In this document: positions 203-33,815 of the stretch, piece by piece | How positions within the stretch are numbered: position 1 is the stretch's first letter | Layout of the letters: every line of letters begins with the position of its first letter | Source: Holosporales bacterium | Lineage (GTDB): Bacteria > Pseudomonadota > Alphaproteobacteria > UBA3830 > JAIRMZ01 | Assembly (NCBI GenBank): GCA_031279495.1 | Contig: JAITIJ010000032.1 | Span: 1 to 37,635, forward strand | DNA: 37,635 nt | Direction: 5' to 3' | The notes under the pieces: generated by a model | What the model was told of the DNA's origin: nothing | The model's database searches: none | Seen by the model: the letters and a program-made list of their open reading frames with translations, nothing else | Program-made: the position numbers and the translations under genes

Positions 203-907
203 TTATAAACATTTTTTCTCATAAAGATGTAGGTCTGAAATCTGGTCTATTTCTCCCCAAGGATAAGGATTTGGCACGCATTTGATGGGTGTCGCCTCTG
301 AAATCTTCCTTAAAAAATCCGTCATAAAAAGCGTATCGTTCTCTATAGCAGGCAGCGTTCTCCAGAATTCTTTTTTAAAGAGCAGTAAGCCCATATATTG
401 ACCCTGAATCTCTTCAATGGAACTTGGTTTCTGTCCAATTTCCAATAATCTTCCTTCAACAGACATTCTAAAAGTTTCAGCATCCTGCAATGGGTCTGCA
501 AAACGCTGACGCCAAAGGTCAAGCCAATTAGGGTCGTACGCAAGCAAGACCAGTGTTTCAGTAGAAGACTCAATCAAATCGCGCACTAAGCGCGTAGTAT
601 AAAAGATATCGGCGTAGCTCACGATGCAATCATCTTCTTTCAACCAAGAAGCGGCGCAAAGCATAGAATAGACCATATTCGTTTCCGCCCATCGCGGATT
701 GTGGATACGGCAAGTACCGTAAGGTTCTAAGCATTGGGATTGGTACCCTGTGACAACGCAGATATCACGTATTCCAGCTTCTTTCAATGCGGTAAGCTGA
801 TGTTCAATGAGAGGCTTTCCGAGCACAGAAACCAAGCTTTTTGGTTGTTCCTCTGTTAAAGATCCCATACGAGATCCGCGTCCAGCAGCCAGGATCAATC
901 CGCGCAT
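203..907 (-). CDS. Nucleotidyltransferase (NTP_transferase fold); candidate CTP:phosphoglutamine cytidylyltransferase (Cj1416-like)
   Basis: 234-aa ORF. The N-terminal 'GLILAAGRGSRMG...QPKSL' is the nucleotide-binding signature of sugar/phospho-nucleotidyltransferases. It is the last gene of a packed minus-strand operon and overlaps the upstream gene by 13 nt. Confidence 0.75.
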   Translation of the reverse strand: MRGLILAAGRGSRMGSLTEEQPKSLVSVLGKPLIEHQLTALKEAGIRDICVVTGYQSQCLEPYGTCRIHNPRWAETNMVYSMLCAASWLKEDDCIVSYADIFYTTRLVRDLIESSTETLVLLAYDPNWLDLWRQRFADPLQDAETFRMSVEGRLLEIGQKPSSIEEIQGQYMGLLLFKKEFWRTLPAIENDTLFMTDFLRKISEATPIKCVPNPYPWGEIDQISDLHLYEKKCL

Positions 908-1668
908 ATATCTCCAAGAAGAGTAAAGTTTTCGAACTCCAAACCAGATCGATAGGCGACAAAGGAATTATTGCGTATCGAAGGGTTGTTATAAACAGGA
1001 GGGCATCGTGTTTTTAAATCAATGATAACGCCTCCAGATTCCGTCAGAATCAGGTGTCCTGCTGCAATATCCCATTCCTTAGACCCTTCGAAACGAGGGT
1101 AGATATCGGCTTCTCTTGTTGCCAATTTGCAGAATTTCAACGCAGAACTCATTTCTATAATTCGATCAATCGCGTTTAACGAAAGAAAACGCTGCGTCCG
1201 GGGAGAATGATGTAGGCGGCTAACAATGGCGCACAATCCGTTTTCTTGTGAGGCTTCCCTTGAAAGAGATGATCTCACACAAGTTACGCCCTCTCCTTTG
1301 GCGGCATAATATAGTGCGTCTAATATGGGCGCATAAATAGCCCCCACTATAGGCGTTCTGTCTTGTATAAGGGCGACATTAACACAGAAATCATCGTGGC
1401 CCTTAAGAAATCCCTTTGTCCCATCCAAAGGATCAACAAGCCAATATCGTGTGTAGTTCTTGCGCACCTCATAAGCTGGCTCCGCTTCTTCAGAAACAAC
1501 TGGAATAGCCTCAAGCTTTGGCAGTGTTTCTGAAAGATAGGCATGAGAAGCTTTGTCGGCTTCTGTTAAAGGGGAGAGATCTTCTTTCTGAACACTTGTC
1601 GTATCTCCCCAGTACGAGGCTATAATTTTCCCCGCTTCTTGGACGATTTCGACAAGTTCATTCTTCAT
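895..1668 (-). CDS. cysQ: 3'(2'),5'-bisphosphate nucleotidase, CysQ / inositol-monophosphatase family
   Basis: 257-aa ORF with the CysQ-type motifs 'YWLVDPLDGTKGF', 'SALKFCKLA...ADIYPRF' and 'WDIAAGH'. Its ATG overlaps the upstream stop as ATGA at 1665-1668. Confidence 0.8.
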   Translation of the reverse strand: MKNELVEIVQEAGKIIASYWGDTTSVQKEDLSPLTEADKASHAYLSETLPKLEAIPVVSEEAEPAYEVRKNYTRYWLVDPLDGTKGFLKGHDDFCVNVALIQDRTPIVGAIYAPILDALYYAAKGEGVTCVRSSLSREASQENGLCAIVSRLHHSPRTQRFLSLNAIDRIIEMSSALKFCKLATREADIYPRFEGSKEWDIAAGHLILTESGGVIIDLKTRCPPVYNNPSIRNNSFVAYRSGLEFENFTLLGDICAD

Positions 1669-2261
1669 GACAGAAAATGTCCCTTAAACAAAGCGATATC
1701 CTGTGCATCAACTGGAGAAGTTCTCTCAGGATGCCACATAATACCATGAATGGGTAGAGTCCTGTGCGCAATTTCCTCTATAGTATCGTCTTCTGCGCAT
1801 TCTTTAATCTCGAACATGGATGCAGTAGTGCGCAGTCCATAATCGTGGTAGCTGTTGACCGTTCTTCCAGAACTCAGGCGATGGTGTTGCCCTATGTGAT
1901 GAGGAACTTTTTCCAAAGGCCCATGGAAATAATGCTGTATCACTTGCATGCCGCGACAAACACCTAAAACGGGAAAAGAAGCAGATACAGCATACGCTAG
2001 AATTGCCCTTTCTGTCGCATCACGCTCTGGAGCTGTTCCTCCATGGTTTTGTAATGTATTTCCTCCACTAAAAACGACGCCCACCAAAGGTGCTGTTTTT
2101 ATCAGGATAAGAGCAATATCTGGATTGTTGGGAATAAGCACAGGAACAAGGGAGCACAAGGCCAAAAAAGAGTTCCATTGCTGGTCAAGAGCATCGCGAC
2201 GTTCTGTCGTGTTTTCGTATGCGTGCTCTTCTACCCGTGTTGTAATGCCGACGAGCTTCAC
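1665..2261 (-). CDS. Class I glutamine-amidotransferase-like hydrolase (peptidase C26 family); candidate gamma-glutamyl-CDP-amidate hydrolase (Cj1417-like)
   Basis: Catalytic 'GVCRGMQ' Cys motif and 'WHPE' His/Glu motif. I moved the start to GTG at 2261, which overlaps the upstream TGA (2258-2260) as GTGA and gives about 198 aa. The 261-aa track ORF would overlap the upstream gene by 193 nt. Confidence 0.75.
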   Translation of the reverse strand: MKLVGITTRVEEHAYENTTERRDALDQQWNSFLALCSLVPVLIPNNPDIALILIKTAPLVGVVFSGGNTLQNHGGTAPERDATERAILAYAVSASFPVLGVCRGMQVIQHYFHGPLEKVPHHIGQHHRLSSGRTVNSYHDYGLRTTASMFEIKECAEDDTIEEIAHRTLPIHGIMWHPERTSPVDAQDIALFKGHFLS

Positions 2262-4564
2262 CGTATTACTTCGACTTTTTGGTTGGCGCAATCTATATGA
2301 AGGATTTGTGCGTGCGCCCATTGCGTGTAGAGTTTTTCTCCTGCTCCGATAATTGCTGGTAAGCCTAATTCTCCTGCGCGGATTGCCATATGAGAATTCA
2401 CCCCGCCGTAAGTCGTCACAAATCCGGCAATACCGTGCGTAAAAATCCAATCGAATCCAGGATCTGCACTGGGGATAAAAAGAATTTTTCCATGTAATGC
2501 GTGCTCACGCGCTAAATCTTTAAGAATAGGCGCTGTAACAGATTTGCGGGTGATGAAATTGGGATGATCCTCTGACAAGGCAAAAGAGTAGAAATCTTCC
2601 GTCTTTGTAATGAGTGGAGGTAAGAGAATCTGCGATGCGATCGTGTACCGCTTTTTGCCTAACTCTATACTCTTTTGTATCGTTTGAAGTATATCCCAAG
2701 AAGAGGCGTACATTTCTAGAATGCTTTTTATGTCGACATAAGACAGTTCTTCTGCATCAAGGCCATGTTGCGCGCCGAACCCCTTGAAGAGGGATAATAC
2801 GTTGCTGAGCGTTTTGGTGAAGACGAATTTGGCATACTCGCGCCCCTCGATTGCTGCTTTCATGAAGGTGAAAATACCTACGACATTATGGTCTAGTTTA
2901 TGCTGTTCTAGCAGATGTTCTACTCGTTGCATCTGAGAAATGGACAATGTAAAGGGCATTTTTTCTGTAAAATGTTCGTTTCTGACTTTAGTCCAATCGA
3001 AATACAAGCTCGGCGCTTCGTCATAACGTGGGGAAAGGATATCATAGGTTCCTGGCCGTAAGTGCCCATATTTTTCAAGGAATACTCCTTGCGACTCTGT
3101 TGCCAGATCATGCGCCATTTGAGAGCTAACCGAATTGAGGCTATTAAGGAAATCCGAACGCTGGTCTTTTGAAAGAATGCCGATGGACACCATCGAATTT
3201 AGGATCTGTACCGCGATAAACCCTGCACGCGCGAGCCCCGCAAAAGGCAATGTGCCATACCTTCTGCAATCTTCTACCATCCAATAGATTTTTGTTAAAA
3301 AATCGAAGTCTTTGTTGTGCAAAATGGTGTCGTGACGGTGTTTTAATTCTTCAATCTTTTGAGCATCCGTCACCCAAAGACCAGTATCATTTCTGATAAT
3401 CGTGTTTGTTAGTTCTCTGAGCGATTCCTGTAAATGCTGAAGATCTTGCTTGGAAAATCCAGCTATTTGCAGAGATTTAAGACGTTCCGGTGTATCAAAA
3501 GTGTAACAAGAATGCGCAATCTCGAATTCGATTTTATCGTGTAGATGAGGAGTTGTTTCCAATGTATCCAGATAATAATCTGCTAACCTATCAGAGAGAG
3601 ATTCGTCAAGCGTTTTCGGCAGAAAGGAGTTGAAGCTTACGCGCACATCGACATAAGGAAGACCGATAAAATCAACAAGAAGGGGAAAACTGCGCAGGTT
3701 CCTGTATCCATAATTATCGCGCTGATAAGCCCACGTACTGTCCGTAATCAGTGTTTTATATAGGCTGAGCGCTAAAGGCTTTGGGCGCACTCCAATGATT
3801 TCCGCCGGATTCCAATCTGGCATAACGCCAAAAAGTGCTCTTCTACCTTTTAGATATGGATGCGGCTTGTTGAGAATATCAAATCGCTTGGCAGCCATAT
3901 CAAGCCAAATCTGTTGATTGGTTATGGGAGAAAGCGTGCAGACTAGTGGTCGGACCTGGAACAAGAACAAATCTTCTTGCTGGTCGAAAGCAAATTCGAT
4001 GTCAAGATTTTGTGTGTCTAAGCGCTTTTCCAAAGTGTGCGCGAGGAGGAGAAGCTTTTTTAAACGTGTGTCTTGATGATGCGTGACACATCTGGCGATA
4101 AATACAGTATTTAGATGCGCTGTTGCTCCCGCTGTAACAGCAGTCGTATCTTGTGTCGTGGAAAAGTTGATGACGTAATACGGAGCCCCGCTATTAGGGT
4201 CTTTCGTGAACAAAACGCCACTCATAGCAACGTCTTGCAGCATCGGTTGCAACAAGACTTCATCTTTAGAAGAAAGAGCATCGCCGTAGGAAGCAAAAAC
4301 CGTCTCAATCGCTTTTCTTAGGCCGGAAAAAGGAACATTCAGCAGAGATGTGTACTTTCCGGCATTAGAAGTGTTTTCTTGATCTTCTGTTGTGGCACTG
4401 CTGCGCACAATAAAAAGAGGCCAGTTTTTCTGGCACGCTTCCTCTAAAAACACTCCTGGCGCTCGCTCCCACATTTCATGAGAGCAAACAAGCATTTCTA
4501 GAATCTTCGCTTCGCAAAGATCTGTAAGAAACTTAAGCGTCTGGGCTTTTGTACTGCACTGCAT
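2258..4564 (-). CDS. PEP-utilising / pyruvate-phosphate-dikinase-like phosphotransferase (N-terminal ATP-grasp PPDK_N domain plus C-terminal phosphohistidine swivel domain); candidate L-glutamine kinase (Cj1418-like)
   Basis: 768-aa ORF. The C-terminal 'GGVNSHMAIRAGELGLPAIIG' is the phosphohistidine mobile-domain signature. The N-terminal 'STKAQTLKFL...FIVRSSATTEDQ' resembles the PPDK_N nucleotide-binding domain. No PEP/pyruvate TIM-barrel domain is evident. Confidence 0.75.
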   Translation of the reverse strand: MQCSTKAQTLKFLTDLCEAKILEMLVCSHEMWERAPGVFLEEACQKNWPLFIVRSSATTEDQENTSNAGKYTSLLNVPFSGLRKAIETVFASYGDALSSKDEVLLQPMLQDVAMSGVLFTKDPNSGAPYYVINFSTTQDTTAVTAGATAHLNTVFIARCVTHHQDTRLKKLLLLAHTLEKRLDTQNLDIEFAFDQQEDLFLFQVRPLVCTLSPITNQQIWLDMAAKRFDILNKPHPYLKGRRALFGVMPDWNPAEIIGVRPKPLALSLYKTLITDSTWAYQRDNYGYRNLRSFPLLVDFIGLPYVDVRVSFNSFLPKTLDESLSDRLADYYLDTLETTPHLHDKIEFEIAHSCYTFDTPERLKSLQIAGFSKQDLQHLQESLRELTNTIIRNDTGLWVTDAQKIEELKHRHDTILHNKDFDFLTKIYWMVEDCRRYGTLPFAGLARAGFIAVQILNSMVSIGILSKDQRSDFLNSLNSVSSQMAHDLATESQGVFLEKYGHLRPGTYDILSPRYDEAPSLYFDWTKVRNEHFTEKMPFTLSISQMQRVEHLLEQHKLDHNVVGIFTFMKAAIEGREYAKFVFTKTLSNVLSLFKGFGAQHGLDAEELSYVDIKSILEMYASSWDILQTIQKSIELGKKRYTIASQILLPPLITKTEDFYSFALSEDHPNFITRKSVTAPILKDLAREHALHGKILFIPSADPGFDWIFTHGIAGFVTTYGGVNSHMAIRAGELGLPAIIGAGEKLYTQWAHAQILHIDCANQKVEVIR

Positions 4565-5840
4565 TGCTGATATCCAAAAATCTTAAGCGTTTGAGCTTGA
4601 TGTATTCTTTGAGAAGATCCGACAAATAATGAGGGCGTTGAATTAAACGTTTACCGAGTATGTCGTCCATTTCCGGAGTATCGGCATCAGGCTTGATCGA
4701 TCTTTTCCTTACAACAAGGTGCAGAACATATCGCAGACTTAGTCGTGCTACTCGCAAAACATCGACAAGACTTAATTTGGCCTCTTCTGGAAAGAACTTA
4801 ATCAAAACATCATGATAGAAAAGCCGGGCAACGGCTTCCTGATCTGCCGTAAGGATCCTCTCCCCTTTCTCGGTAAAGTTCTTATTTACAGAAGCCGTGT
4901 TTTTTCGCTTTCCAGAGAACCCTACCCAAGGATTTCCATAGAAAGTCGCTTGTTTTAGCGTAGGATCATACCGAACACCTAAAAAGGCACATACATGCGC
5001 CATAACAGCATCAAATTCCTTGTGTAATCCAGGCAGATAAAGAAGATAAATACTTTTTGGGATTTTCCACATATCATAAAGAGCGGATACCCTATGCGTC
5101 CGAACATCTTCTCTGTTGACGAGACTAGATTCGTAGGATTCACGCATGGAAGCGATCAATTGCGCATTTTTTACCGGGTCTTTTTGAAGAATGGCTAATT
5201 TTCTCTTTGATGCTCTTTCCGAACTGAGAGCCGATTCCAGAGTCTCTACAGGATTCCTCAGTAGAGTAATAAAGCTCGCCTTTGGAAAGTCTTGAAAGAA
5301 TTTTTTATGCTGTCTAAAGACGTCTTTTCGTGGCCCTTTCCGAGTAGTTGTCATGACGTGATGGCTATGAAGATGAAGAAGAATGAGCTTTAGATTCCTC
5401 AATGATCTATTGCATATTAGAAAAAAAGCGATATGGATCAGCAGAAAGTATTCTTTGCGTCCGCAATCACCATATAATTGACATAACTGGAAAAAGATTC
5501 TGCAGAACGCGCTCTTATCAATATTTCTCAGACTCTGTGGAGGATCTTCACAAGCAGCGGGCCTGAAAACCCCCCTCGCGAGATCGAACAATCCAGAAGA
5601 GTTCTTTTCAAAGAGTTCCAGGTATTCTTCTGGAGAAAATTTCTCTTCTTCGTTTGCGTAAAAATCATATACGTTTGTCTCTATAGGCAAGCTAGAAACT
5701 TCTTCGTGTTGATCAAAGAGTCCTTTGAAAAAAGTAGACCCCGCTCTTCCATAAGGCGTCATAACTGCGCACTGCACTCGAGAAAGAGCGTCAACTAACT
5801 CCTCACGCGTTAAATTTAGATCTTCAAGCATTCCAGACAT
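4533..5840 (-). CDS. Sulfotransferase-fold protein (binds a 3'-phosphonucleotide donor); acceptor and transferred group unknown
   Basis: 435-aa ORF. It has an N-terminal P-loop-like 5'-phosphosulfate-binding motif 'YGRAGSTFFKGLF' and a 3'-phosphate-binding type motif 'LLRNPVETLES'. It overlaps both operon neighbours. Confidence 0.6.
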   Translation of the reverse strand: MSGMLEDLNLTREELVDALSRVQCAVMTPYGRAGSTFFKGLFDQHEEVSSLPIETNVYDFYANEEEKFSPEEYLELFEKNSSGLFDLARGVFRPAACEDPPQSLRNIDKSAFCRIFFQLCQLYGDCGRKEYFLLIHIAFFLICNRSLRNLKLILLHLHSHHVMTTTRKGPRKDVFRQHKKFFQDFPKASFITLLRNPVETLESALSSERASKRKLAILQKDPVKNAQLIASMRESYESSLVNREDVRTHRVSALYDMWKIPKSIYLLYLPGLHKEFDAVMAHVCAFLGVRYDPTLKQATFYGNPWVGFSGKRKNTASVNKNFTEKGERILTADQEAVARLFYHDVLIKFFPEEAKLSLVDVLRVARLSLRYVLHLVVRKRSIKPDADTPEMDDILGKRLIQRPHYLSDLLKEYIKLKRLRFLDISNAVQYKSPDA

Positions 5841-6304
5841 TTCTCCGTTACCAAGCGCGCTTGTTGCTCCAAACTTGTCCTTTCATCAAAACAAAAATCC
5901 GAATACCACGGCTCTTCGTAAGAGTTATCCACCATATCCAGATTCCGCTTATACAGTCCCTTTGCATCGCGCAGTTCCCGCTCTTGCTGGCTAATACGCA
6001 AATAAACCTCGATGTACTGTTTGTTGTTATCGCGGTTCCACCGTCGAACTTCTTCAAACATCGAAATTGTAGCAACTATCACAAGAAACCCTTGCTCCGA
6101 TAGTAACCTTGCCAGCCTAGAGTAAACATGGGAAAGCTTCCTCCTCTCTTCATGGGAGACGCCGGACTCTTCCCCTAAAACAGCGCGCATTTCATCTCCG
6201 TCAAGGAGCAAAGGGTGCAGCCCGGTACTACAGAGCTGTTTGCTAACGGCGCGCGCTAATGTCGTTTTTCCTGCCCCTGAAAATCCGGTAATCCAGACAA
6301 CCAC
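5816..6304 (-). CDS. Adenylylsulfate (APS) kinase family protein; candidate cytidine diphosphoramidate 3'-kinase (Cj1415-like)
   Basis: 162-aa ORF. It has the Walker A motif 'ITGFSGAGKTTLA', plus 'LDGDEMR' and 'RDAKGLYK' motifs typical of CysC-type kinases. It is the first gene of the operon. Confidence 0.8.
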   Translation of the reverse strand: MVVWITGFSGAGKTTLARAVSKQLCSTGLHPLLLDGDEMRAVLGEESGVSHEERRKLSHVYSRLARLLSEQGFLVIVATISMFEEVRRWNRDNNKQYIEVYLRISQQERELRDAKGLYKRNLDMVDNSYEEPWYSDFCFDERTSLEQQARLVTEKCLECLKI

Positions 6305-6394: not shown

Positions 6395-6781
6395 CTAGCA
6401 AGAGGTCGTTAGTTGCCCCGGAAAGAGAATCTTAATAATACCTCCAAACGCGCACATCAATTGAGAATCATTGGTTAAGGCAGGAGAAGCTCCTACAAGA
6501 ACAACGGGATTTCCTACAATCCATGGCGGAATAAGGGCAAGAGTGCACGGCATTGGTGTCAGCACTCCAAAGGCCGCTGCGGTAGCGGCAGCCGTTGCGG
6601 GGTTCGCCAAACTTGTACATACCCCAAAAGGAGAAACATTCAAGAAAGGAACAGAGTCCATAATCGTTCCCATCGGCGGACCACCGCAAAAAGCACAAGA
6701 AGTGGGCAGAAAATTCAAAGGCGTTGGCACCATTCCCATTGAACATTTGCATAAAGCACCCTGAACGACAGGAAGACCCAT
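6395..6781 (-). CDS. DUF4280 (PAAR-like) domain protein
   Basis: Near-textbook DUF4280 pattern: 'VVQGALCKCSMG', 'PFGVCTSLANPATAAATAAAFGVLTPMPC', 'PPW', 'LMCAFGGIIKI..PGQ'. The start is set to ATG at 6781; the track uses TTG at 6787. Confidence 0.8.
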   Translation of the reverse strand: MGLPVVQGALCKCSMGMVPTPLNFLPTSCAFCGGPPMGTIMDSVPFLNVSPFGVCTSLANPATAAATAAAFGVLTPMPCTLALIPPWIVGNPVVLVGASPALTNDSQLMCAFGGIIKILFPGQLTTSC

Positions 6782-6783
6782 GT

Positions 6784-7503
6784 TCAACCATTGTCCTGTG
6801 GAGGACAGACGTTGCCCTTACGATCAAACTGTACACTGTTTTGAAGCTTTCCAGCGTTGAAATAGGCGACTTCCTTGATGCCTCCATCATCGTAGTATTG
6901 GCGTCTCTCTCCCTCCAAAAGATCCGCATGATAGAGAGCTTCTTCCAGCGGCTGACAATTGGGATAGTATGTGACGCTCGAGCCTTCTAATTTACCAGCA
7001 ACATAGGAAGAAGTGCGAACAATAGTCCCACCGTCTCTGAAGAAAGTAAACATTCCTTCAAGTTTTCCGGATACATAAAACGCCTCAGCAGCCACCTCTC
7101 CAGTGGGATTGAAATATGTTGCTTTCCCCTCTTGCAAGCCGTCAACATAAAGCACCTCTAACGTCTTACAGCCATCTTTATAAAAAGTGGCGAGTCCATT
7201 AAGGGTATTGTTTGCGTAAGTTAGGGTTTGTGTAACGTTACCATCTTCAGCATAAATAAAAGCGCTGCCAGAAAGTACCCCACCAACAAACATCAGTTTC
7301 TGTGCGCATCCTCCAGATGAAAAAAACACCTCAGTTGGTCCATCCAGACATCCCTCTCTGTAAGTCATTTTTTGAAGGAGCGTTCCCTGCGTATCGCAGA
7401 TATCCACAACACCATTTAAAGAGGCCTGCTCTTGATCCGTATCTGCTTGCACAGAAGAGAGGTCAGCCATCGAAGAATCTCTCACAAATCTGTAAGAAAA
7501 CAA
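6784..7503 (-). CDS. MORN-variant repeat protein (YwqK-like repeat architecture)
   Basis: 239-aa ORF built from about 23-aa repeats of the form 'G.L.G....YY..G.......Y..GKL.G'. Its stop lies 2 nt before the DUF4280 start. Confidence 0.6.
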   Translation of the reverse strand: MFSYRFVRDSSMADLSSVQADTDQEQASLNGVVDICDTQGTLLQKMTYREGCLDGPTEVFFSSGGCAQKLMFVGGVLSGSAFIYAEDGNVTQTLTYANNTLNGLATFYKDGCKTLEVLYVDGLQEGKATYFNPTGEVAAEAFYVSGKLEGMFTFFRDGGTIVRTSSYVAGKLEGSSVTYYPNCQPLEEALYHADLLEGERRQYYDDGGIKEVAYFNAGKLQNSVQFDRKGNVCPPQDNG

Positions 7504-7761
7504 GAGATATTTTATTTAAATAAAACCAATGTAGCAATACCTGTTGCCGTGGTGCGACGAACAACAAAAATCTAGTTGTTTTTTATTGATTCTTTCGCAT
7601 CCCTCCTCTATCAAGGAATATGCCACGTAAGTGACGAGGGTGAAAAGGTAAAGGTGGGATTTTTTCAGAATTATCTCTGTTCAGAACCCTTGTAGGATCA
7701 TAGTGCGCGGAAGATGATAGGGTCTTTAGCGAAATCCGGAAAGGCGTTGAATATAAGGTAT

Positions 7762-8265
7762 ATGAAAAGACTCAGTAAACGAGAAAGGATATGTATGCGT
7801 AGTAACTTGTTTGTATCTGTGGCGCTATTTGCGTGTACGGCTATGTATGTCAATGTAGTATTAGGACAAGAGGATTCTGCAACTGCTACGGTCCCGACGG
7901 CAGAGGCAGCAGCAATTCCTGGGGCAGGTGCAGAGCCTCCAAGAGAGGTACCAGCAGCAGAGCCTACTGAGGTTCCTGAAAGCACAGCAGTAGGTTCTGC
8001 ATCTCCTACATCTGAAGAAAAGAACATGTTGGCGGCACCAGAACCAGAGAAGAAAGGTCGCCACAAGAGAAGGCGGCATAAAAAGCGGCATCGTCAGACA
8101 GATCCGGGGTCGCTGCCAACCCCAGAGACACTAGCAGTAGATCCTGCATCTGGAAAGGATCCATCGGCGACACCAGAACCCGAGAAGAAGGGTCGCCACA
8201 AGAGAAGGCGGCATCGTCACGAGGAATCCATCACACCGGCTGTGGAATCTCCTAGCCCAAATTAA
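7762..8265 (+). CDS. Secreted Pro/Glu/Ala-rich protein with two copies of a basic 'PEPEKKGRHKRRRH' motif
   Basis: The signal-peptide-like N-terminus is 'MKRLSKRERICMRSNLFVSVALFACTAMYVNVVLGQ'. The start could be ATG 7762 or ATG 7795, and both have AAGG-type RBS. A stem-loop follows at 8281-8314. Confidence 0.55.
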   Translation: MKRLSKRERICMRSNLFVSVALFACTAMYVNVVLGQEDSATATVPTAEAAAIPGAGAEPPREVPAAEPTEVPESTAVGSASPTSEEKNMLAAPEPEKKGRHKRRRHKKRHRQTDPGSLPTPETLAVDPASGKDPSATPEPEKKGRHKRRRHRHEESITPAVESPSPN

Positions 8266-25710: not shown

Positions 25711-27537
25711 ATGTGCGGTATCTGGTTCTCTGTTGGGTGGGGCAATCTGCCCTCTTCTGTTATTGATGTTGTGAAGCATCGCGGGCCAGACGGTCGAGGA
25801 TGGCAAGAGTTTTCGTCTGACCAAGGTCCGGTCATATTGGCGCACAGGCGGTTAGCGATTATTGATCTGAGCTCTTCTGGTTATCAGCCCATGTCGTCTT
25901 GTGATAAGCGGCTTTGGATTACCTTTAATGGCGAGGTTTATAACTACATCGAAATCCGGAAAGAGCTAGAAAATCTCGGATGTTCGTTTATTTCTCAGAC
26001 AGACACAGAGGTGGTTTTGCAAGCCTATGAGGTGTGGGGTCCAGCCTGTCTGCACCGTTTTAATGGCATGTTTGCTTTTGTAATTTGGAACGATCAAGAG
26101 AAAACAGCTTTTGTTGCGCGTGATCGTTTTGGCGTGAAACCTCTTTATGTGCACCAGGATGGCCAGAAGATTGCTTTTGCTTCGGAGATCAAGCAATTCT
26201 ACGAGATTCCTGGATTTCACGCTCACATTCATGCTGGAAATGCCCACGATTTTCTTGCACATGGTATGACTGATCACAATGAGGGAACCTTTATCGAGGA
26301 AGTGTTTCGTGTGCCTTTTGGTGGAGCGGGGGTGGTAGCCTCCGGAACGTTTGAGCCTTACATTTGGTACACGCTTCCTACACAAGAGATTAGCCGTCCT
26401 TTAGAAGAAGCTGCTGCTTTGTTTCGCGAGATTTTTCTGGATGCAGTACGCTTGCGCTTCCGCTCTGATGTGCGCGTTGGAGCGCTTTTGTCAGGAGGGC
26501 TTGATAGCTCGGCTATTGTTTGTGCTGCACGAGAGTTTTTCCCGCCTTTTGACACGTTTAGCGTATGCTATCCTGGCGAAAGTGTTGATGAGAGTGTTTA
26601 TATTGATGCTGTCATACAAGAGAAAAACACCATAGCGCATAAAATTTCGCCAGGGACAAATACGCTGCGGGATGAAATAGATAAACTGCTTTACCATCAA
26701 GAGGAACCTTTTGGCGGAACGAGTCTTTTGGCTGAGTGGAGCGTTTTTAAACTTGCTCATGAGCAAGGCGTTTCCGTAACGCTTGGTGGACAGGGACCAG
26801 ATGAACAATTGGCAGGTTATCATCCAATGTTTGGTGGATTTTACGGGGAGCTTATTCGTACAGGACGTTTCATACGCCTTATAAAAGAAGGATGCGCACG
26901 CGTACAAAAACATCGCGTCCCTCTACGTCGTCTTTTGGCGGACACGTTATCTATGTCTTTTCCGGAAATCCATTCTCGTGTTTTGTCGCTTTTGCATCCG
27001 CGCGGTCCATGTTCGTGGCTCAAATTAGATCCTCAGCAAAAAACCAGGTGGTTTACGGACTTTATTGCTGTTGACTCGCACAAAACCCTTTCAGACACTT
27101 GTCGGTGGTACATGAAGACAAATTTGCAAGCTCTTGTGAAACATGAAGATCGCGACAGTATGGCCTTTGGAATAGAATCTCGTTTGCCTTTTTTGGATTA
27201 CCGGCTTGTTGAGCTTATAGCTTCTTTACCAGCACATTATAGAATTCGCAACGGACAGACAAAGTACATTTTACGCGACGCTTTGCGCGGCATCCTCATC
27301 GAATCAGTTCGAACGCGTCAGAGCAAAATCGGATTCGCGACTCCAGAAGACAAATGGTTTACGAGAGATTTCCGTTCCGATTTGGATAAGGGAGTTGCTT
27401 CTTTTGCCGTAAATAACCGTAGAATCATTGATGAGAAAGAGTTAAAGTCAGCTTCCAGTGGCGATACGCACTTAGCCTGGCGTGTATATATTTTCGATAA
27501 ATGGATGCGTCAGTGGAAGGTAAAGTGGGCGCAGTGA
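25711..27537 (+). CDS. Asparagine synthetase (glutamine-hydrolysing) family amidotransferase, glycan-cluster type
   Basis: 608 aa. 'MCGI' N-terminal nucleophile Cys2, 'HRGPDG' and PP-loop 'LSGGLDSS'. It is the first gene of the glycan island. Confidence 0.85.
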   Translation: MCGIWFSVGWGNLPSSVIDVVKHRGPDGRGWQEFSSDQGPVILAHRRLAIIDLSSSGYQPMSSCDKRLWITFNGEVYNYIEIRKELENLGCSFISQTDTEVVLQAYEVWGPACLHRFNGMFAFVIWNDQEKTAFVARDRFGVKPLYVHQDGQKIAFASEIKQFYEIPGFHAHIHAGNAHDFLAHGMTDHNEGTFIEEVFRVPFGGAGVVASGTFEPYIWYTLPTQEISRPLEEAAALFREIFLDAVRLRFRSDVRVGALLSGGLDSSAIVCAAREFFPPFDTFSVCYPGESVDESVYIDAVIQEKNTIAHKISPGTNTLRDEIDKLLYHQEEPFGGTSLLAEWSVFKLAHEQGVSVTLGGQGPDEQLAGYHPMFGGFYGELIRTGRFIRLIKEGCARVQKHRVPLRRLLADTLSMSFPEIHSRVLSLLHPRGPCSWLKLDPQQKTRWFTDFIAVDSHKTLSDTCRWYMKTNLQALVKHEDRDSMAFGIESRLPFLDYRLVELIASLPAHYRIRNGQTKYILRDALRGILIESVRTRQSKIGFATPEDKWFTRDFRSDLDKGVASFAVNNRRIIDEKELKSASSGDTHLAWRVYIFDKWMRQWKVKWAQ

Positions 27538-27571
27538 ATCGCGTTGATTTTGAAAGTTATGAAAATCTCCA

Positions 27572-28174
27572 ATGATTGTTATCGTAGATTACGGAGTGGG
27601 AAACTTAGGATCTGTTGCGTCTATGCTCCGTCGCGCTGGAGGAGATCCTGTCGTAAGCTGTGATCCAGATGTGATTTCGCGGGCAGATAAATTGATTTTG
27701 CCTGGTGTGGGAGCATTTGATAGAGCTATGAATGGATTGGAAGAGCGCCATCTTCTTCCTGCTTTGCAAGAGGTCGTCGCGCGAGAAACACCGGTGCTAG
27801 GCATTTGCTTGGGGGCTCAAATCCTTGGAAGGAAAAGTGAGGAGGGTATATGCGCCGGCTTAGGGTGGCTAGATATGGAAGTGAAGAAGTTTTCTTCTAA
27901 GGATCTCCGTGTTCCTCACATGGGGTGGAACACGGTTACTCCAGCTAAAAATTCCTTGTTGTTTGACGCTATTTCTACCGAAGAGCAGCGTTTCTATTTC
28001 GTTCACTCTTACTACATGCAATGCCGTAATGAAGAGAATATTCTAGCTATCTCTTCTTATGGAAAAGACTTCGCTTGCGCCGTAAGTTGTGGCCATATCT
28101 ACGGAGTGCAATTTCATCCAGAAAAAAGTCATCGCTTCGGGATGAATTTATTTAAAAGATTTCTCGATGTTTAG
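27572..28174 (+). CDS. HisH-like glutamine amidotransferase subunit (WbuY type)
   Basis: 'IVIVDYGVGNLGSV', 'GICLGAQIL' and 'VQFHPEKS'. It is paired with a HisF-like gene and an N-acetyl sugar amidotransferase, not with his genes. Confidence 0.85.
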   Translation: MIVIVDYGVGNLGSVASMLRRAGGDPVVSCDPDVISRADKLILPGVGAFDRAMNGLEERHLLPALQEVVARETPVLGICLGAQILGRKSEEGICAGLGWLDMEVKKFSSKDLRVPHMGWNTVTPAKNSLLFDAISTEEQRFYFVHSYYMQCRNEENILAISSYGKDFACAVSCGHIYGVQFHPEKSHRFGMNLFKRFLDV

Positions 28175-28934
28175 AAGGATTATTCCTGTGCTTCTTCTTT
28201 CTGACGGTGGTCTTGTAAAATCAAAAAATTTCCAAGATTGTAGGTACGTTGGTGATGCACTTAATGCTGTACGTATTTTTAGCGAGAAAGAGGCTGATGA
28301 GCTAGTGTTTTTGGATATAGAGGCGACACGCCGTGGCGCATCTCCAGATATAGAAATGATCAAGGCTATTGCTTCAGAAGCTTACATGCCCTTTGCTTAC
28401 GGAGGGGGAGTGCGAACACTTCAACAAGCTGAAAATATTCTTCGAAATGGTGCAGAAAAGATTGTTTTGAATGATGCTATTTTTTCAATACCACATATTG
28501 TTGAAGAAATGACGAAGGAGTTTGGTTCTCAAGCTGTTGTTGCGTGTATCGACGTGAAGAGGATCATTTTTGGCAAATATGCGATTTTTTCTTATAAGGA
28601 TAGGACGCTACGTAAACCAGATCTTGTCACCTCTATTTCTCTATGCGAGAACCTTGGATGCGGAGAAATTATCGTGCAGAGCGTTGATCACGATGGCCAA
28701 AGGACCGGATATGACGTACCCTCCATTCAGCGCACACGAAAAGCGACCTCACTCCCACTTGTCGCTTTGGGGGGCGCTCGGAGCGTAGAGGATTTTCGTG
28801 CCGCCTTTCAAGCGGGAGCAGATGCAGTTGCGGCAGGATCTATGTTTATTTTCTGGGGAAAGTATCAAGCGGTTCTTATTAATTACCCAACCAGTCAAGA
28901 AATAAGGAGTATTCTACATGCAGATATGCACTAA
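28167..28934 (+). CDS. HisF-like cyclase subunit (WbuZ type)
   Basis: 'RIIPVLLL.DGGLVKS', 'ADELVFLDI' and 'GADAVAAGSMF'. It overlaps hisH-like by 8 nt. Confidence 0.85.
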   Translation: MFRRIIPVLLLSDGGLVKSKNFQDCRYVGDALNAVRIFSEKEADELVFLDIEATRRGASPDIEMIKAIASEAYMPFAYGGGVRTLQQAENILRNGAEKIVLNDAIFSIPHIVEEMTKEFGSQAVVACIDVKRIIFGKYAIFSYKDRTLRKPDLVTSISLCENLGCGEIIVQSVDHDGQRTGYDVPSIQRTRKATSLPLVALGGARSVEDFRAAFQAGADAVAAGSMFIFWGKYQAVLINYPTSQEIRSILHADMH

Positions 28935-30093
28935 GTGCGTCATGGACTCCACAGCAGAAGAGATTACGTTTGACGCGCAAGGCGTGTGTAGCTTCTGCCG
29001 ACATTTTGAAGAAAAAGTTCGCCCCTATTGGCACCCAGGAACGCAAGAAAGTCTGGCGCAACTTGAGAATCTAGTCGCCAAGATAAAATGCTCTCAGCGC
29101 AGCAGTGAATACGATGCCATTATTGGTCTTAGCGGAGGTGTGGATAGCTCTTATTTGGCTTGCTGGGCTGTAAAATCCGCCGGCTTGCGGTTGTTAGCGG
29201 TTCATGTCGATGGGGGATGGAACTCAGAACTCGCTGTCCAGAACATTGAGCAGATTGTTAAAAAATTAAACATAGATCTACATACATACGTCGTAAATTG
29301 GCAAGCTATGAAAGAAGTGCAACTAGCTTTTTTTAAGGCAGGCGTGGCAAACCAGGATACACCTCAAGACCATGCGTTTTCCAGTGCGCTCTACAGGTTT
29401 GCGGTGGACAGCAAAATAAAATATATCTTGAGTGGAAGTAATATCGCAACGGAATCCTGTCTTCCTGTTTCTTGGGGGCATAACGCAGGAGATGTAGATC
29501 AAATCTTGGATATTTGCAGGACCTACAAAGCACAATGTGTCAACAAATTCCCTCTGGAATCTTTTTTCGGGCGTTGTATTTATTTCCCATATATTCGAAA
29601 AATGGAAGTTGTTACTCCCCTCAATTATTTGGATTACAGCAAGGAAGAAGCTATTCAGACGTTAGAAAAGGAACTTGGCTGGAAGTATTATGGTGGGAAA
29701 CACTATGAATCTCGGTTTACGAGATTTTTCCAAAGTTACTGGCTTCCTAAAAAATTTGGTTTCGATAAACGAAAAGCACATTTTTCAAGTCTTATTTTAT
29801 CTGGACAAATGACGCGAGATTTAGCTTTGGAAGAGCTCCAAAAGCCCTCTTTCGATCAGTCTAGTATAGAAAGCGATATTGAATACGTTGCTAAAAAGCT
29901 TGGAATAAGCAAGCAGGAGTTTTTAAAGCTTATGGAAGAACCGAATCGTATTTATAAGGACTTCAGAAACAATGATTGGAAAAGGCGCTATTTGCTGAAA
30001 CCATTTAATTGTGCGTCCACAGCTTTAAGAGAACCACAGCGGGTCTTTGGGTGGCTTGGGATAAAGAAGACGTCGTGCGGCGCAAAGAAATAA
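28918..30093 (+). CDS. N-acetyl sugar amidotransferase (WbuX/WbpG/PseA family, PP-loop)
   Basis: N-terminal Cys cluster 'CTKCVMDS......GVCSFCRHF' and PP-loop 'LSGGVDSS'. An AAGGAG RBS lies before ATG 28918. Confidence 0.8.
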   Translation: MQICTKCVMDSTAEEITFDAQGVCSFCRHFEEKVRPYWHPGTQESLAQLENLVAKIKCSQRSSEYDAIIGLSGGVDSSYLACWAVKSAGLRLLAVHVDGGWNSELAVQNIEQIVKKLNIDLHTYVVNWQAMKEVQLAFFKAGVANQDTPQDHAFSSALYRFAVDSKIKYILSGSNIATESCLPVSWGHNAGDVDQILDICRTYKAQCVNKFPLESFFGRCIYFPYIRKMEVVTPLNYLDYSKEEAIQTLEKELGWKYYGGKHYESRFTRFFQSYWLPKKFGFDKRKAHFSSLILSGQMTRDLALEELQKPSFDQSSIESDIEYVAKKLGISKQEFLKLMEEPNRIYKDFRNNDWKRRYLLKPFNCASTALREPQRVFGWLGIKKTSCGAKK

Positions 30094-30112
30094 ATGCGAG
30101 CGTGAAAAGCAA

Positions 30113-30790
30113 ATGACACGCATTTTATGTCTAGCGCCGCACACTGACGATGCTGAGCTTGGTGCCGGAGGGACTCTTGCGCGATTTGTCGAATGGGGGG
30201 GGGGGGCGCATGTCTATGTGGCAGCGTTTTCTCCTTGTCGGCAGTCTTTACGTGAAAGTGGATTGCCGGAGGATGCCTTAGAAAAGGAATTTCACGCATC
30301 GATGGATCTTTTAGGGGTTCATGGTCGTGCGATATACGATTTTCCAGTACGAGAATTTCCCACACATCGGCAAGAGATTCTTGAAGAAATGGTGCGTTTA
30401 CGAAAAGACACGAAGCCGGATCTTGTTTTAATCCCGTCTCCTGGAGATGTTCATCAAGATCATCACGTGATCCATCAGGAGGCCTTACGTTGTTTCAAAT
30501 GCGCCAATGTATGGTGTTATGAGCAGCCTTGGAACCAAAAAACAACAACGTGTACGATGTACATGCCGCTTACCGAGGCGCATCTGCAGAAAAAATGGGC
30601 AGCCATCGCGCAATACAAAAGCCAGATGACATTAAAGCGATCTTACTGTACGTTGGAGTTTGTTGCAGGATTGGCGCGCGTTCGTGGTGTACAAGCCGGT
30701 TGTGCCTTTGCAGAGGCTTTTGAGGCGGTGAGGCATGTGTGGGCACCCTCACCGGAGGTGCAAAAAATAGGATCTGAGGGGAGATTGTGA
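30113..30790 (+). CDS. PIG-L / LmbE family N-acetyl-sugar deacetylase (contains G12 tract)
   Basis: 'ILCLAPHTDDAELGAGGTL' and 'HQDHH' metal-site motifs. The G12 tract at 30195-30206 encodes 'WGGGA' and is in frame in this sequence. Confidence 0.75.
   Translation: MTRILCLAPHTDDAELGAGGTLARFVEWGGGAHVYVAAFSPCRQSLRESGLPEDALEKEFHASMDLLGVHGRAIYDFPVREFPTHRQEILEEMVRLRKDTKPDLVLIPSPGDVHQDHHVIHQEALRCFKCANVWCYEQPWNQKTTTCTMYMPLTEAHLQKKWAAIAQYKSQMTLKRSYCTLEFVAGLARVRGVQAGCAFAEAFEAVRHVWAPSPEVQKIGSEGRL
30195..30206 (+). repeat. Homopolymeric G12 tract inside the PIG-L deacetylase gene
   Basis: I counted 12 consecutive G directly in the sequence. Confidence 0.95.
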
Positions 30791-32417: not shown

Positions 32418-32440
32418 CCAGTGAAACGAGAAATGACCCC

Positions 32441-33808: not shown

Positions 33809-33815
33809 TGACACT

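What the first reader, a model, noticed from the sequence alone, without database searches (positions are those of the whole stretch)
4533..5840. Sulfotransferase-fold protein as a candidate phosphoramidate transferase of a new type
The ORF carries the two nucleotide-binding hallmarks of PAPS-dependent sulfotransferases. These are a P-loop-like 'YGRAGSTFF' near the N-terminus and 'LLRNPVETLES' in mid-protein. It sits between the CysC-like kinase and the glutamine-kinase-like gene and overlaps both. The predicted donor, 3'-phospho-CDP-amidate, is built like PAPS (a 3'-phosphonucleotide with an activated 5' group). A sulfotransferase scaffold is therefore a chemically reasonable but, to my knowledge, uncharacterised solution for phosphoramidate transfer. 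The roughly 200-aa C-terminal extension has no motif I recognise and could be the acceptor-binding part.
Basis: inference. Interest (0 to 1): 0.75.

Follow-up and report, generated by a model that had tools for sequence, protein, structure and literature searches.

The report
Sulfotransferase-like candidate phosphoramidate transferase
A gene that looks like a sulfate-transferring enzyme sits inside an operon that makes a sulfate-donor look-alike carrying a phosphorus-nitrogen group, and the same pairing recurs in many bacterial phyla, so it probably attaches that rare group to a cell-surface sugar.

Summary
Window 4533-5840 (-) is a 435-aa ORF with a sulfotransferase 5'-phosphosulfate loop (YGRAGSTFF, 30-38) and a 3'-phosphate motif (R195...S203). 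Its AlphaFold model matches only sulfotransferases at the top: CurM ST, TPST, Stf9 and NST.

It overlaps both neighbours in a six-gene operon: Cj1415-like kinase, this ORF, Cj1418-type glutamine kinase, Cj1417-like hydrolase, CysQ-like phosphatase and Cj1416-like cytidylyltransferase.

- The wider family lies within 3.7 kb of the glutamine kinase gene in 18 of 80 loci from many phyla.
- 8 of 13 family members looked up independently sit beside pathway genes, often abutting the kinase.

The protein does not match NCBIfam NF058596, the Campylobacter O-methyl phosphoramidate transferase family (Cj1421/Cj1422 type). No searchable paper links the two ideas.

The best reading (about 0.6) is a sulfotransferase-fold enzyme that uses 3'-phospho-CDP-amidate in place of PAPS, with the CysQ-like enzyme clearing the nucleotide by-product. 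Nothing here shows donor specificity. A true PAPS sulfotransferase remains the main rival.

The "200-aa" C-terminal extension is really about 110-135 aa.

The parts
5816..6304 (-). Cj1415-like P-loop kinase (APS-kinase fold). Inferred to be a cytidine diphosphoramidate 3'-kinase that makes the PAPS-like donor.
   Evidence: Pfam APS_kinase E=4e-30. NCBIfam NF004041/PRK05541 scores 139.1 bits against a 127 cut-off, whereas canonical apsK TIGR00455 scores 112.8, below its 138.7 cut-off. Its stop lies 25 nt inside the next ORF.
4533..5840 (-). The finding: a 435-aa sulfotransferase-fold protein. It has a 5'-PSB-like loop (G31-R32-A33-G34-S35-T36), D43/H45, a conserved His at the end of strand 152-158, a 3'-PB motif (R195-N-P...S203), L272-H273 and T299/G302. 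The helical C-terminal extension covers about 325-435.
2258..4564 (-). L-glutamine kinase homolog (Cj1418 family).
   Evidence: NCBIfam NF004508/PRK05849 scores 956.6 bits against a 501 cut-off, full length. Pfam PPDK_N and PEP-utilizers both match. Its ATG lies 32 nt before the stop of the sulfotransferase-like ORF.
1665..2261 (-). Cj1417-like gamma-glutamyl-CDP-amidate hydrolase (class-I amidotransferase / Peptidase_C26). The likely start is the GTG at 2261, which overlaps the upstream TGA (GTGA).
   Evidence: NCBIfam NF045546 'gamma-glutamyl-CDP-amidate hydrolase' scores 125 bits, E=3e-36, below its 250 cut-off. Pfam Peptidase_C26 E=7e-22. Start read.
895..1668 (-). CysQ-like 3'(2'),5'-bisphosphate nucleotidase. 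Inferred to hydrolyse the by-product cytidine 3',5'-bisphosphate, as CysQ does for PAP.
   Evidence: TIGR01331 bisphos_cysQ scores 215 bits against a 228.8 cut-off, E=1e-63. Pfam Inositol_P E=1e-48. The same gene sits in the same position in L004, L007, L013, L014, L021 and L094.
203..907 (-). Cj1416-like nucleotidyltransferase. Inferred to be a CTP:phosphoglutamine cytidylyltransferase.
   Evidence: Pfam NTP_transf_3 E=2e-22. It follows the hydrolase in nearly all of the 80 related loci.

Best explanation
The ORF encodes a sulfotransferase-fold group transferase. I infer it uses cytidine 3'-phosphate 5'-diphosphoramidate in place of PAPS and moves the terminal amidophosphoryl group onto a hydroxyl of a surface glycan.

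**Shown**
- The fold and both nucleotide-phosphate motifs are present.
- Five genes surround it in a tightly overlapping operon. Four are homologs of Cj1418, Cj1416, Cj1417 and Cj1415; the fifth is a CysQ-like phosphatase.
- This protein family recurs next to those genes in many phyla.

**Inferred pathway**
1. The Cj1418, Cj1416 and Cj1417 homologs make CDP-amidate from glutamine, ATP and CTP.
2. The adjacent kinase adds the 3'-phosphate.
3. The loop G31-T36 (with R32) holds the 5'-diphosphoramidate. R195 and S203 hold the 3'-phosphate.
4. The conserved His at the end of strand 152-158 acts as the base for the acceptor hydroxyl.
5. Cytidine 3',5'-bisphosphate leaves and is cleared by the CysQ-like phosphatase.

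No homolog of the cluster-type methyltransferase is in the window. The product may therefore be an unmethylated phosphoramidate, as reported on Xanthomonas and Shewanella LPS. The helical, partly hydrophobic C-terminal region may bind the acceptor or the membrane; this is speculative.
For: **Operon.** There are six genes with overlaps of 25, 32, 4, 4 and 13 nt. The pathway genes are identified by NCBIfam and Pfam.

**Fold.**

**Forward co-occurrence.** 18 of 80 loci anchored on Cj1418 homologs carry a family member 200-3656 nt from the glutamine kinase gene, and none at 6-10 kb. These loci come from Alphaproteobacteria, Gammaproteobacteria, Planctomycetota, Acidobacteriota, Cyanobacteria-related lineages and Coxiellaceae.

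**Reverse co-occurrence.**
- Present: window, L003, L004, L005/6, L088, L093, L094, L095.
- Absent: L001, L002, L089, L090, L096.
- Sources.

**Kinase adjacency.** The kinase and the sulfotransferase-like gene are immediate neighbours or overlap in the window, L003, L007, L026, L027, L076, L093, L094 and L095.

**Expected by chance.** The family is rare, with 1028 representatives at E<=1e-3 among 1.84 billion. Chance adjacency is therefore negligible.

**No sulfate activation nearby.** No CysD/CysN lies near any sulfotransferase-linked locus or in the window.

**Literature.**
- Cj1415-1418 make 'CDP-phosphoramidate 3'-phosphate', described as the 'likely donor' (PMC11800397).
- The enzymology of the transfer step is still open (PMC12409886).
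- Unmethylated phosphoramidates occur on Xanthomonas and Shewanella LPS (PMC3907429).
Against: - There is no biochemical or structural evidence on donor choice.
- The family is unambiguously homologous to PAPS-dependent enzymes.
- 10 of the 18 sulfotransferase-linked loci have no Cj1415-like kinase within 6 kb. Overall there is no association with the kinase (Fisher p=0.79).
- 5 of 13 independently examined members are not next to pathway genes.
- 62 of 80 pathway loci lack this family nearby, so it is at most one of several solutions.
- The window protein itself is below the Pfam gathering score.
Confidence: 0.6

Rival explanations
1. It is an ordinary PAPS-dependent sulfotransferase. On this reading the APS-kinase-like gene, this ORF and the CysQ-like gene form a sulfation module (PAPS synthesis, sulfate transfer, PAP recycling). 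That module merely shares an operon with phosphoramidate-biosynthesis genes because both decorate the same glycan.
For: - It is homologous to CurM ST and TPST, with both PAPS-phosphate motifs kept.
- Kinase, sulfotransferase and CysQ together are the textbook sulfation toolkit (established knowledge).
- Some family members lie in polysaccharide loci without phosphoramidate genes (L089, L090, L096).
- L093 also carries a Sulfotransfer_2 gene.
- NCBI names relatives simply 'sulfotransferase'.
Against: - No ATP sulfurylase (CysD/N) lies in the window or in any sulfotransferase-linked locus. Sat-type enzymes were not searched for.
- The three genes are interleaved with, and translationally overlapped by, Cj1418-, Cj1417- and Cj1416-like genes.
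- The kinase scores above cut-off for the PRK05541 subfamily and below cut-off for canonical apsK.
- In C. jejuni the homologous kinase belongs to the phosphoramidate pathway (PMC11800397).
- The recurrence next to glutamine-kinase genes across phyla is hard to explain by shared glycan targets alone.
Confidence: 0.22
2. It belongs to the phosphoramidate pathway but is not the final transferase. For example, it could bind the 3'-phosphorylated nucleotide to present it to a methyltransferase, transfer the group to a carrier, or act as a hydrolase or editing enzyme. The real glycan transferase would then be encoded elsewhere.
For: - Co-occurrence shows pathway membership, not the step catalysed.
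- A methyltransferase is next to the sulfotransferase-like gene in most loci.
- Other candidate transferases accompany the pathway elsewhere. These are TagF-like proteins in Vibrio and Pseudomonas loci, two 413-aa proteins in L092, and a second P-loop-like family in 20 loci.
Against: - The window operon has no methyltransferase and no other transferase candidate.
- The sulfotransferase fold is a group-transfer scaffold with a conserved His, Arg and Ser set.
- All biosynthetic steps up to the donor are already assigned to the other genes (PMC11800397).
Confidence: 0.12
3. It is a degenerate or non-catalytic sulfotransferase-like protein, kept for structural or regulatory reasons.
For: - It is below the Pfam gathering score.
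- The 3'-PB Ser is S, A or T among close relatives, and R32 is not invariant.
Against: - G31, G34, S35, D43, H45, R195, P197, T299 and G302 are invariant or nearly so across 26 sequences at 15-20% identity.
- The model is confident.
- The ORFs are intact in several distant lineages.
Confidence: 0.05

Closest known systems
Campylobacter jejuni MeOPN transferases Cj1421/Cj1422 (CJJ81176_1420/1435; NCBIfam NF058596 CJJ1420_fam)
   Same: Both are encoded next to Cj1415-Cj1418-type genes. Both are proposed to take the phosphoramidate from the same 3'-phosphorylated CDP-amidate donor to a surface glycan. Neither has been characterised in vitro.
   Different: - There is no detectable sequence relationship. 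The window protein and 15 relatives give no NF058596 hit at E<=10, while a Campylobacter fragment scores 243 bits over its first 127 positions.
- The Campylobacter enzymes are about 590-625 aa, phase-variable through a poly-G tract, and were first annotated as glycosyltransferases.
- Their fold could not be examined here, because no full sequence was obtainable.
PAPS-dependent sulfotransferases of the Sulfotransfer_3 type (CurM ST 4gbm, olefin synthase ST 4gox, TPST1/2, Stf9)
   Same: The fold is the same. The 'RSGS/T...LD.HP' 5'-phosphosulfate loop, the 'FP.AKF...VRDP....S' 3'-phosphate motif and the 'R.EDL' strand-helix are shared.
   Different: - Identity is only 10-15% and TM-scores are 0.3-0.5.
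- There are large helical insertions and a C-terminal extension.
- As I recall it, the CurM and TPST catalytic base is a Glu after the HP motif. No Glu is conserved at the aligned position here; a His at the end of a strand is conserved instead.
- The genomic context is phosphoramidate synthesis rather than sulfate activation.
The sulfate activation and transfer cycle CysC (APS kinase), sulfotransferase, CysQ (PAP phosphatase)
   Same: The three protein folds are the same and the logic is the same. A kinase 3'-phosphorylates a nucleoside 5'-diphospho-type donor. A transferase recognises that 3'-phosphate. A phosphatase removes the 3',5'-bisphosphate by-product.
   Different: The activated group is inferred to be amidophosphate on a cytidine nucleotide. 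It is built by glutamine kinase, a cytidylyltransferase and an amidohydrolase rather than by ATP sulfurylase.
TagF-like CDP-glycerol glycerophosphotransferases (Pfam Glyphos_transf)
   Same: They transfer a phospho-group from a CDP-activated donor. Weak members of this family sit directly after the Cj1416-like gene in the Vibrio plasmid and in Pseudomonas and Chitinilyticum loci. They are therefore alternative candidates for the same step.
   Different: The fold is unrelated. The Vibrio plasmid locus has no kinase gene in the stretch examined. The Pseudomonas and Chitinilyticum loci have only a lower-scoring APS-kinase-like gene on the opposite strand, 2-4.6 kb away.

Membership tests
Sulfotransferase superfamily (Pfam Sulfotransfer_3 / Sulfotransfer_1) | 5'-phosphosulfate-binding loop after strand 1 (xRSGS/T-T). 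| tested here: met
   Y30-GRAGST-F37. It aligns to CurM 'PRSGSTLL' and TPST 'RSGTTLM'. G34 is invariant, and G31 and S35 are nearly so.
Sulfotransferase superfamily (Pfam Sulfotransfer_3 / Sulfotransfer_1) | 3'-phosphate-binding motif: Arg at a strand end, with Ser eight residues later on the following helix. | tested here: met
   R195-N-P-V-E-T-L-E-S203. It aligns to CurM 'VRHPYSVIES' and TPST 'VRDGRASVHS'. R195 and P197 are invariant in 26 sequences. The Ser is S, A or T in close relatives.
Sulfotransferase superfamily (Pfam Sulfotransfer_3 / Sulfotransfer_1) | Overall fold. | tested here: met
   AF2 model pLDDT 79.5, pTM 0.83. The top 19 Foldseek PDB hits are all sulfotransferases with probability 0.91-1.00, although TM-scores are only 0.3-0.5.
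Sulfotransferase superfamily (Pfam Sulfotransfer_3 / Sulfotransfer_1) | Score above the Pfam gathering threshold. | tested here: not met
   24.0 bits against 27, and 20.2 against 22, for the window protein. Relatives P0008, P0153, L082 and L077 do pass.
Sulfotransferase superfamily (Pfam Sulfotransfer_3 / Sulfotransfer_1) | Uses PAPS and transfers a sulfuryl group. | not testable with these tools
   This needs an enzyme assay or ligand-bound modelling. Context argues against it but does not test it.
CJJ1420_fam O-methyl phosphoramidate transferases (NCBIfam NF058596; Cj1421/Cj1422) | Match to the 596-position family model (cut-off 600 bits). | tested here: not met
   No hit at E<=0.01 or E<=10 for the window protein. 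There is also none for P0002-P0005, P0008, P0153, P0158, L043, L076 or L082. Positive control: the L087 Campylobacter fragment scores 243 bits.
CJJ1420_fam O-methyl phosphoramidate transferases (NCBIfam NF058596; Cj1421/Cj1422) | N-terminal helical region with repeated HL(A/S)Y.LG motifs, and a poly-G phase-variation tract. | tested here: not met
   phmmer of the 130-aa Campylobacter fragment against all six-frame ORFs of the window and 96 loci finds only itself. No such tract appears in the ORF as read.
CJJ1420_fam O-methyl phosphoramidate transferases (NCBIfam NF058596; Cj1421/Cj1422) | Same three-dimensional fold as the window protein (remote homology). | not tested
   No full-length Cj1421/Cj1422 sequence could be obtained.
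Phosphoramidate (MeOPN-type) biosynthesis gene cluster, Cj1415-Cj1418 | L-glutamine kinase (Cj1418 family). | tested here: met
   NF004508 scores 956.6 bits against a 501 cut-off.
Phosphoramidate (MeOPN-type) biosynthesis gene cluster, Cj1415-Cj1418 | gamma-Glutamyl-CDP-amidate hydrolase (Cj1417). | tested here: inconclusive
   NF045546 is the best hit (125 bits, E=3e-36) but is below its 250-bit cut-off. Peptidase_C26 and GATase are clearly present.
Phosphoramidate (MeOPN-type) biosynthesis gene cluster, Cj1415-Cj1418 | Cytidylyltransferase (Cj1416) and 3'-kinase (Cj1415). | tested here: met
   NTP_transf_3 E=2e-22. The kinase scores 139.1 bits on NF004041 against a 127 cut-off. Substrate specificity is inferred from the C. 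jejuni work.

The most novel reading that the evidence does not exclude
Sulfotransferase-fold proteins form a widespread, unrecognised class of amidophosphoryl (phosphoramidate) transferases. Together with a Cj1415-like kinase and a CysQ-like phosphatase they would make a cytidine-based mirror image of the PAPS sulfation cycle. This would be a case of the sulfotransferase scaffold moving a phosphorus-centred group; I know of no precedent. It would also mean that phosphoramidate decoration of glycans, so far known from Campylobacter capsules and a few lipopolysaccharides, is common across bacterial phyla, including protist-associated Holosporales-like bacteria.
Probability: 0.5. Interest if true: 0.75.

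Novelty: new variant of a known kind. Interest (0 to 1): 0.62.

Why it matters
The step that puts the phosphoramidate onto the sugar is the one part of the MeOPN pathway with no enzymology. The Campylobacter transferases are known only from knock-outs. As of 2025 the leading laboratory still describes this step as something to be worked out.

A compact protein of about 400 aa with a well-understood fold gives a directly testable candidate. It sits next to the kinase that makes the PAPS-like donor and near a phosphatase for the by-product. It also gives a mechanistic rationale for why the donor carries a 3'-phosphate.

If confirmed, two things follow:
- The known chemistry of the sulfotransferase fold is widened.
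- Proteins now labelled 'sulfotransferase' in many genomes are re-annotated.

The wide spread of the glutamine-kinase family, with at least 543 hits in a species-level genome collection, suggests the modification is far less rare than assumed.

Tried and rejected
**1. Obtaining Cj1421/Cj1422 for a direct comparison.** This did not succeed.
- A word-based search with five sulfotransferase-like proteins of about 600 aa found no Campylobacter protein.
- A published primer sequence (PMC3907429) found one 1134-bp metagenome contig, holding only the first 130 codons and a poly-G frameshift.
- There was no match in plasmids and no PDB entry.
- Three Raushel papers (PMC5938747, PMC6643271, PMC5938751) are not held.

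**2. A link between the kinase and the sulfotransferase-like gene.** I expected one across loci. Fisher p=0.79, so I do not claim it.

**3. A second neighbour family (20 loci).** It has 'GLFGSGR' and 'YRHPLDSLLTNW' motifs, and I tested whether it is also sulfotransferase-like. The result is not established.
- hhalign against the family gives probability 3%.
- There is no Pfam or NCBIfam hit.
- The only PDB hits are Teg12 sulfotransferase at E=1.5.

**4. The two 413-aa proteins in plasmid locus L092.** They have no P-loop motifs and no family hits.

**5. NF058596 among neighbours of pathway loci that lack the family.** I scanned 107 unannotated neighbour ORFs against NCBIfam. NF058596 is not among the 25 most frequent families, but the tool lists only those, so one or two hits cannot be excluded.

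**6. Literature.** No searchable paper contains MeOPN or diphosphoramidate together with sulfotransferase.

**7. Kinase motifs.** Differences from PDB APS kinases were seen (for example ISMF in place of ISPY). I did not use them as evidence.

Full report
**What is there**

The window is a whole 37,635-bp contig; the database copy of the ORF's product sits on a contig of exactly that length. Its left end carries six minus-strand ORFs that overlap or abut.

| Coordinates | Product |
|---|---|
| 6304-5816 | APS-kinase-like protein |
| 5840-4533 | the finding, 435 aa |
| 4564-2258 | PEP-utilising enzyme, 768 aa |
| 2261-1665 | class-I amidotransferase-like protein |
| 1668-895 | inositol-monophosphatase-family protein |
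| 907-203 | MobA-like nucleotidyltransferase |

Reading the junctions shows:
- The kinase stop lies 25 nt inside the finding's ORF, or 16 nt if codon 4 is the start.
- The next gene's ATG lies 32 nt before the finding's stop.
- There is a GTGA start/stop overlap at 2261-2258.

**Identity of the neighbours**

- The 768-aa protein matches NCBIfam NF004508 (PRK05849) end to end at 957 bits against a 501 cut-off. From memory, this is the Cj1418 L-glutamine kinase family.
- The amidotransferase-like protein's best hit is NF045546, 'gamma-glutamyl-CDP-amidate hydrolase'. It scores 125 bits, below the 250 cut-off.
- The kinase passes the PRK05541 subfamily model (139 against 127) but not canonical apsK (113 against 139).
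- The phosphatase is CysQ-like (215 bits, just under the 229 cut-off).

- The motifs are at residues 30-38 and 193-203.
- Pfam sees Sulfotransfer_3 and Sulfotransfer_1 just under threshold. Relatives pass.
- A profile of four close homologs reaches a bacterial sulfotransferase structure, 3rnl, at E=0.008.
- A profile of 26 pathway-linked relatives reaches CurM ST at 3.6e-14, the olefin-synthase ST at 8e-13 and TPST1/2 at about 1e-11. In these hits 'RSGS..LD.HP' aligns to the 5'-phosphosulfate loop and 'FP.AKF...VRDP....S' aligns to the 3'-phosphate motif.
- An AlphaFold2 model built on 20 sequences has pLDDT 79.5 and pTM 0.83. Its top 19 PDB matches are all sulfotransferases: CurM, OLS, Stf9, TPST, NST, Stf1 and SULT1C1. 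TM-scores are low, 0.3-0.5, because of insertions.
- The core ends near residue 300-325. A low-confidence loop at 310-325 follows, then five helices to the C-terminus. The 'extension' is therefore about 110-135 aa rather than about 200.
- Its helices are moderately hydrophobic in the window protein (KD19 1.25) and more so in several relatives (up to 2.4). This is compatible with membrane or acceptor contact but does not show it.

**How rare is it**

- Word-based searches of 5.8 billion proteins found only five other close relatives. At least two are from Holosporales MAGs.
- An exhaustive profile search of 1.84 billion representatives found 13 at E<=1e-30, 207 at E<=1e-10 and 1028 at E<=1e-3.
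- The window protein is thus a member of a small subfamily inside a modest, largely unannotated branch of the sulfotransferase superfamily.
- NCBIfam has no model for it. Sources call relatives 'hypothetical protein' or 'sulfotransferase'.

**Co-occurrence, forward**

- I anchored a scan of one genome per species on an alignment of three glutamine-kinase homologs. At least 543 relatives were confirmed, and the best 80 loci, with up to 10-kb flanks, were kept.
- Local HMMs show the core Cj1418-Cj1417-Cj1416 trio almost everywhere. A class-I methyltransferase is in 58 loci, a Cj1415-like kinase in 40 and a CysQ-like gene in 5.
- A member of the sulfotransferase-like family is in 18 loci, at 200-3656 nt from the glutamine kinase gene. 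There are no hits in the 6-10 kb zone.
- The carriers span Alphaproteobacteria, Gammaproteobacteria (including a Coxiellaceae MAG), Pirellula, Bryobacterales/Acidobacteriota and Obscuribacterales.

**Co-occurrence, reverse**

I looked up 13 family members without reference to the pathway.

| Locus | Neighbouring pathway genes |
|---|---|
| window | full operon |
| L003 | kinase directly upstream |
| L004 | follows Cj1418, Cj1417, CysQ and Cj1416 homologs |
| L005/L006 | heads a complete cluster |
| L088 | inside a complete cluster |
| L093 | followed by kinase and methyltransferase |
| L094 | ST, kinase, MT, Cj1418, Cj1417, CysQ, Cj1416, almost the window's order |
| L095 | kinase and ST overlap; divergent from the rest of the cluster |
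| L001, L002, L089, L090, L096 | none |

With about 1000 representatives in 1.8 billion proteins, adjacency by chance is negligible.

**Is it the known transferase family? No, at sequence level**

- NCBIfam holds NF058596, 'CJJ1420_fam, O-methyl phosphoramidate transferase' (596 positions).
- A 130-codon Campylobacter fragment was recovered with a published primer. After repairing its poly-G frameshift it scores 243 bits on positions 1-127.
- The window protein, five close relatives and ten wider relatives give no hit to that model, even at E<=10.
- Cj1421/Cj1422 were originally annotated as glycosyltransferases (PMC9561416). They are 592-603 aa in strain 81-176.
- I could not obtain a full sequence, so a shared fold at very long range is untested.
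- No paper in the searchable library mentions MeOPN or diphosphoramidate together with sulfotransferase.

**Mechanism proposed**

*Shown:* the fold, the motifs, the operon and the co-occurrence.

*Inferred:*
- The donor is cytidine 3'-phosphate 5'-diphosphoramidate.
- R32 and the G31-T36 loop hold the diphosphoramidate. R195 and S203 hold the 3'-phosphate.
- A His conserved at the end of strand 152-158 (HLH in the subfamily, 'YAQH' in the wider family) activates the acceptor hydroxyl. This is the position where, as I recall, cytosolic SULTs carry their catalytic His.
- From memory, CurM ST and TPST use a Glu after the HP motif as base. No Glu is conserved at the aligned position here.
- The leaving group is cytidine 3',5'-bisphosphate, which the operon's CysQ-like enzyme would clear. 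That gene recurs in the same slot in L004, L007, L013, L014, L021 and L094.
- No cluster-type methyltransferase is detectable in the window. The product may therefore be the unmethylated phosphoramidate known from Xanthomonas and Shewanella LPS (PMC3907429).

**What weakens it**

- The family is truly homologous to PAPS enzymes.
- Kinase, sulfotransferase and CysQ are also the standard sulfation kit.
- Ten of 18 sulfotransferase-linked loci lack a nearby kinase, and there is no overall association (p=0.79).
- Most pathway loci (62 of 80) lack the family. Other candidate transferases sit there.
- Against the sulfation reading, no CysD/CysN is near any sulfotransferase-linked locus. The three 'sulfation' genes are also interleaved with and overlapped by phosphoramidate genes.

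**Organism and acceptor**

- The contig also encodes flgH, flgA, flgG, flgF and fliM, together with ruvABC.
- It carries a cluster resembling nonulosonic-acid or flagellin-glycosylation genes: AsnB-like, HisH/HisF-like, PIG-L and formyltransferase-GNAT.
- The closest relatives of the finding and of the glutamine kinase are from Holosporales and other Alphaproteobacteria MAGs.
- The acceptor is unknown. LPS, capsule and flagellin glycan are all possible.

**Verdict**

- I file it as a new variant of a known kind: a sulfotransferase-fold enzyme recruited to the known phosphoramidate pathway, distinct from the Campylobacter transferase family.
- Interest is 0.62.

Noticed in passing
L036, L040, L042, L047, L048, L050, L056, L057, L060-L062, L065, L066, L070-L073, L081, L085, L086 (for example L047:14544-15482:-): A second unannotated family lies next to Cj1418-type clusters in 20 of 80 loci, mostly Acidobacteriota. 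Its roughly 270-aa domain carries 'GLFGSGRxY' and 'YRHPLDSLLTNW' followed by 'LRLEDF', which looks like another sulfotransferase-like motif set. The domain is sometimes fused behind methyltransferase plus GT2 domains. There is no Pfam or NCBIfam hit, hhalign to the finding's family gives 3%, and the only PDB hits are Teg12 sulfotransferase at E=1.5.
   Followed up: partly
window 895-1668 (-); also L004:3196-3969, L007:11225-12049, L013:12894-13652, L014:12902-13717, L021:12851-13678, L094:14272-15054: A CysQ-like 3',5'-bisphosphate nucleotidase is inserted between the Cj1417-like and Cj1416-like genes in several distant lineages. This fits a dedicated phosphatase for the 3'-phospho-CMP by-product. 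I found no mention of it in the papers read.
   Followed up: partly
L008, L009, L010, L012, L016, L018 (Pseudomonas), for example L018:6446-8497 and L009:8230-9909: In Pseudomonas the Cj1418-Cj1417-Cj1416 cluster lies directly beside flgK and a flagellin gene. PseC/LegC-type aminotransferase and formyltransferase-like genes are nearby. This suggests phosphoramidate decoration of a flagellin glycan.
   Followed up: no
L091:12927-14009 (Vibrio alfacsensis plasmid pYa108); L021:17448-18518; the Pseudomonas loci: A weak TagF-like CDP-glycerol glycerophosphotransferase homolog follows the cytidylyltransferase in the Vibrio plasmid cluster, where no kinase gene was found. Homologs also lie near the Pseudomonas and Chitinilyticum clusters, which have only a weaker-scoring kinase-like gene on the opposite strand. 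They may be an alternative transferase that uses unphosphorylated CDP-amidate.
   Followed up: partly
L092:7568-8809 and L092:12764-14005 (Deltaproteobacteria bacterium Smac51 plasmid): Two 413-aa hypothetical proteins flank a complete cluster that includes a kinase and a methyltransferase. They have no P-loop motifs and no Pfam or NCBIfam hit, so they may be a further candidate transferase type.
   Followed up: partly
Genome-contig scan; plasmids: The Cj1418 glutamine-kinase family is far more widespread than the Campylobacter literature implies. Hits come from Pseudomonadota, Planctomycetota, Acidobacteriota, Gemmatimonadota, Verrucomicrobiota, Bacteroidota, Nitrospinota, Spirochaetota, Bacillota and others, and from 14 plasmids.
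   Followed up: partly
L091:5472-7877 and L011:3473-6306: cysD and cysN (cysNC in Dongia) lie next to the phosphoramidate cluster in two loci that have no sulfotransferase-like gene. None of the sulfotransferase-linked loci has them.
   Followed up: no
L087:745-1134 (metagenome contig OAWR01002527.1): A Campylobacter-type MeOPN transferase gene lies just downstream of an hddC-like heptose nucleotidyltransferase. It is frameshifted at its poly-G tract, that is, in the phase-variable OFF state.
   Followed up: yes
window 6395-7503 (-) and 7714-8265 (+): Directly upstream of the operon are a DUF4280 (PAAR-like) protein and a MORN_2-repeat protein. On the other strand there is a 183-aa ORF with a repeated 'EPEKKGRHKRRRH' motif.
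   Followed up: no
window 25711-35593 (+): This gene cluster resembles nonulosonic-acid or flagellin-glycan modification. It holds AsnB-like amidotransferase, HisH/HisF-like pair, NAD-synthase-like, PIG-L deacetylase and formyltransferase-GNAT fusion genes. Flagellar genes flgH/A/G/F and fliM are at 13.2-17.4 kb. It is a possible source of the acceptor glycan.
   Followed up: no
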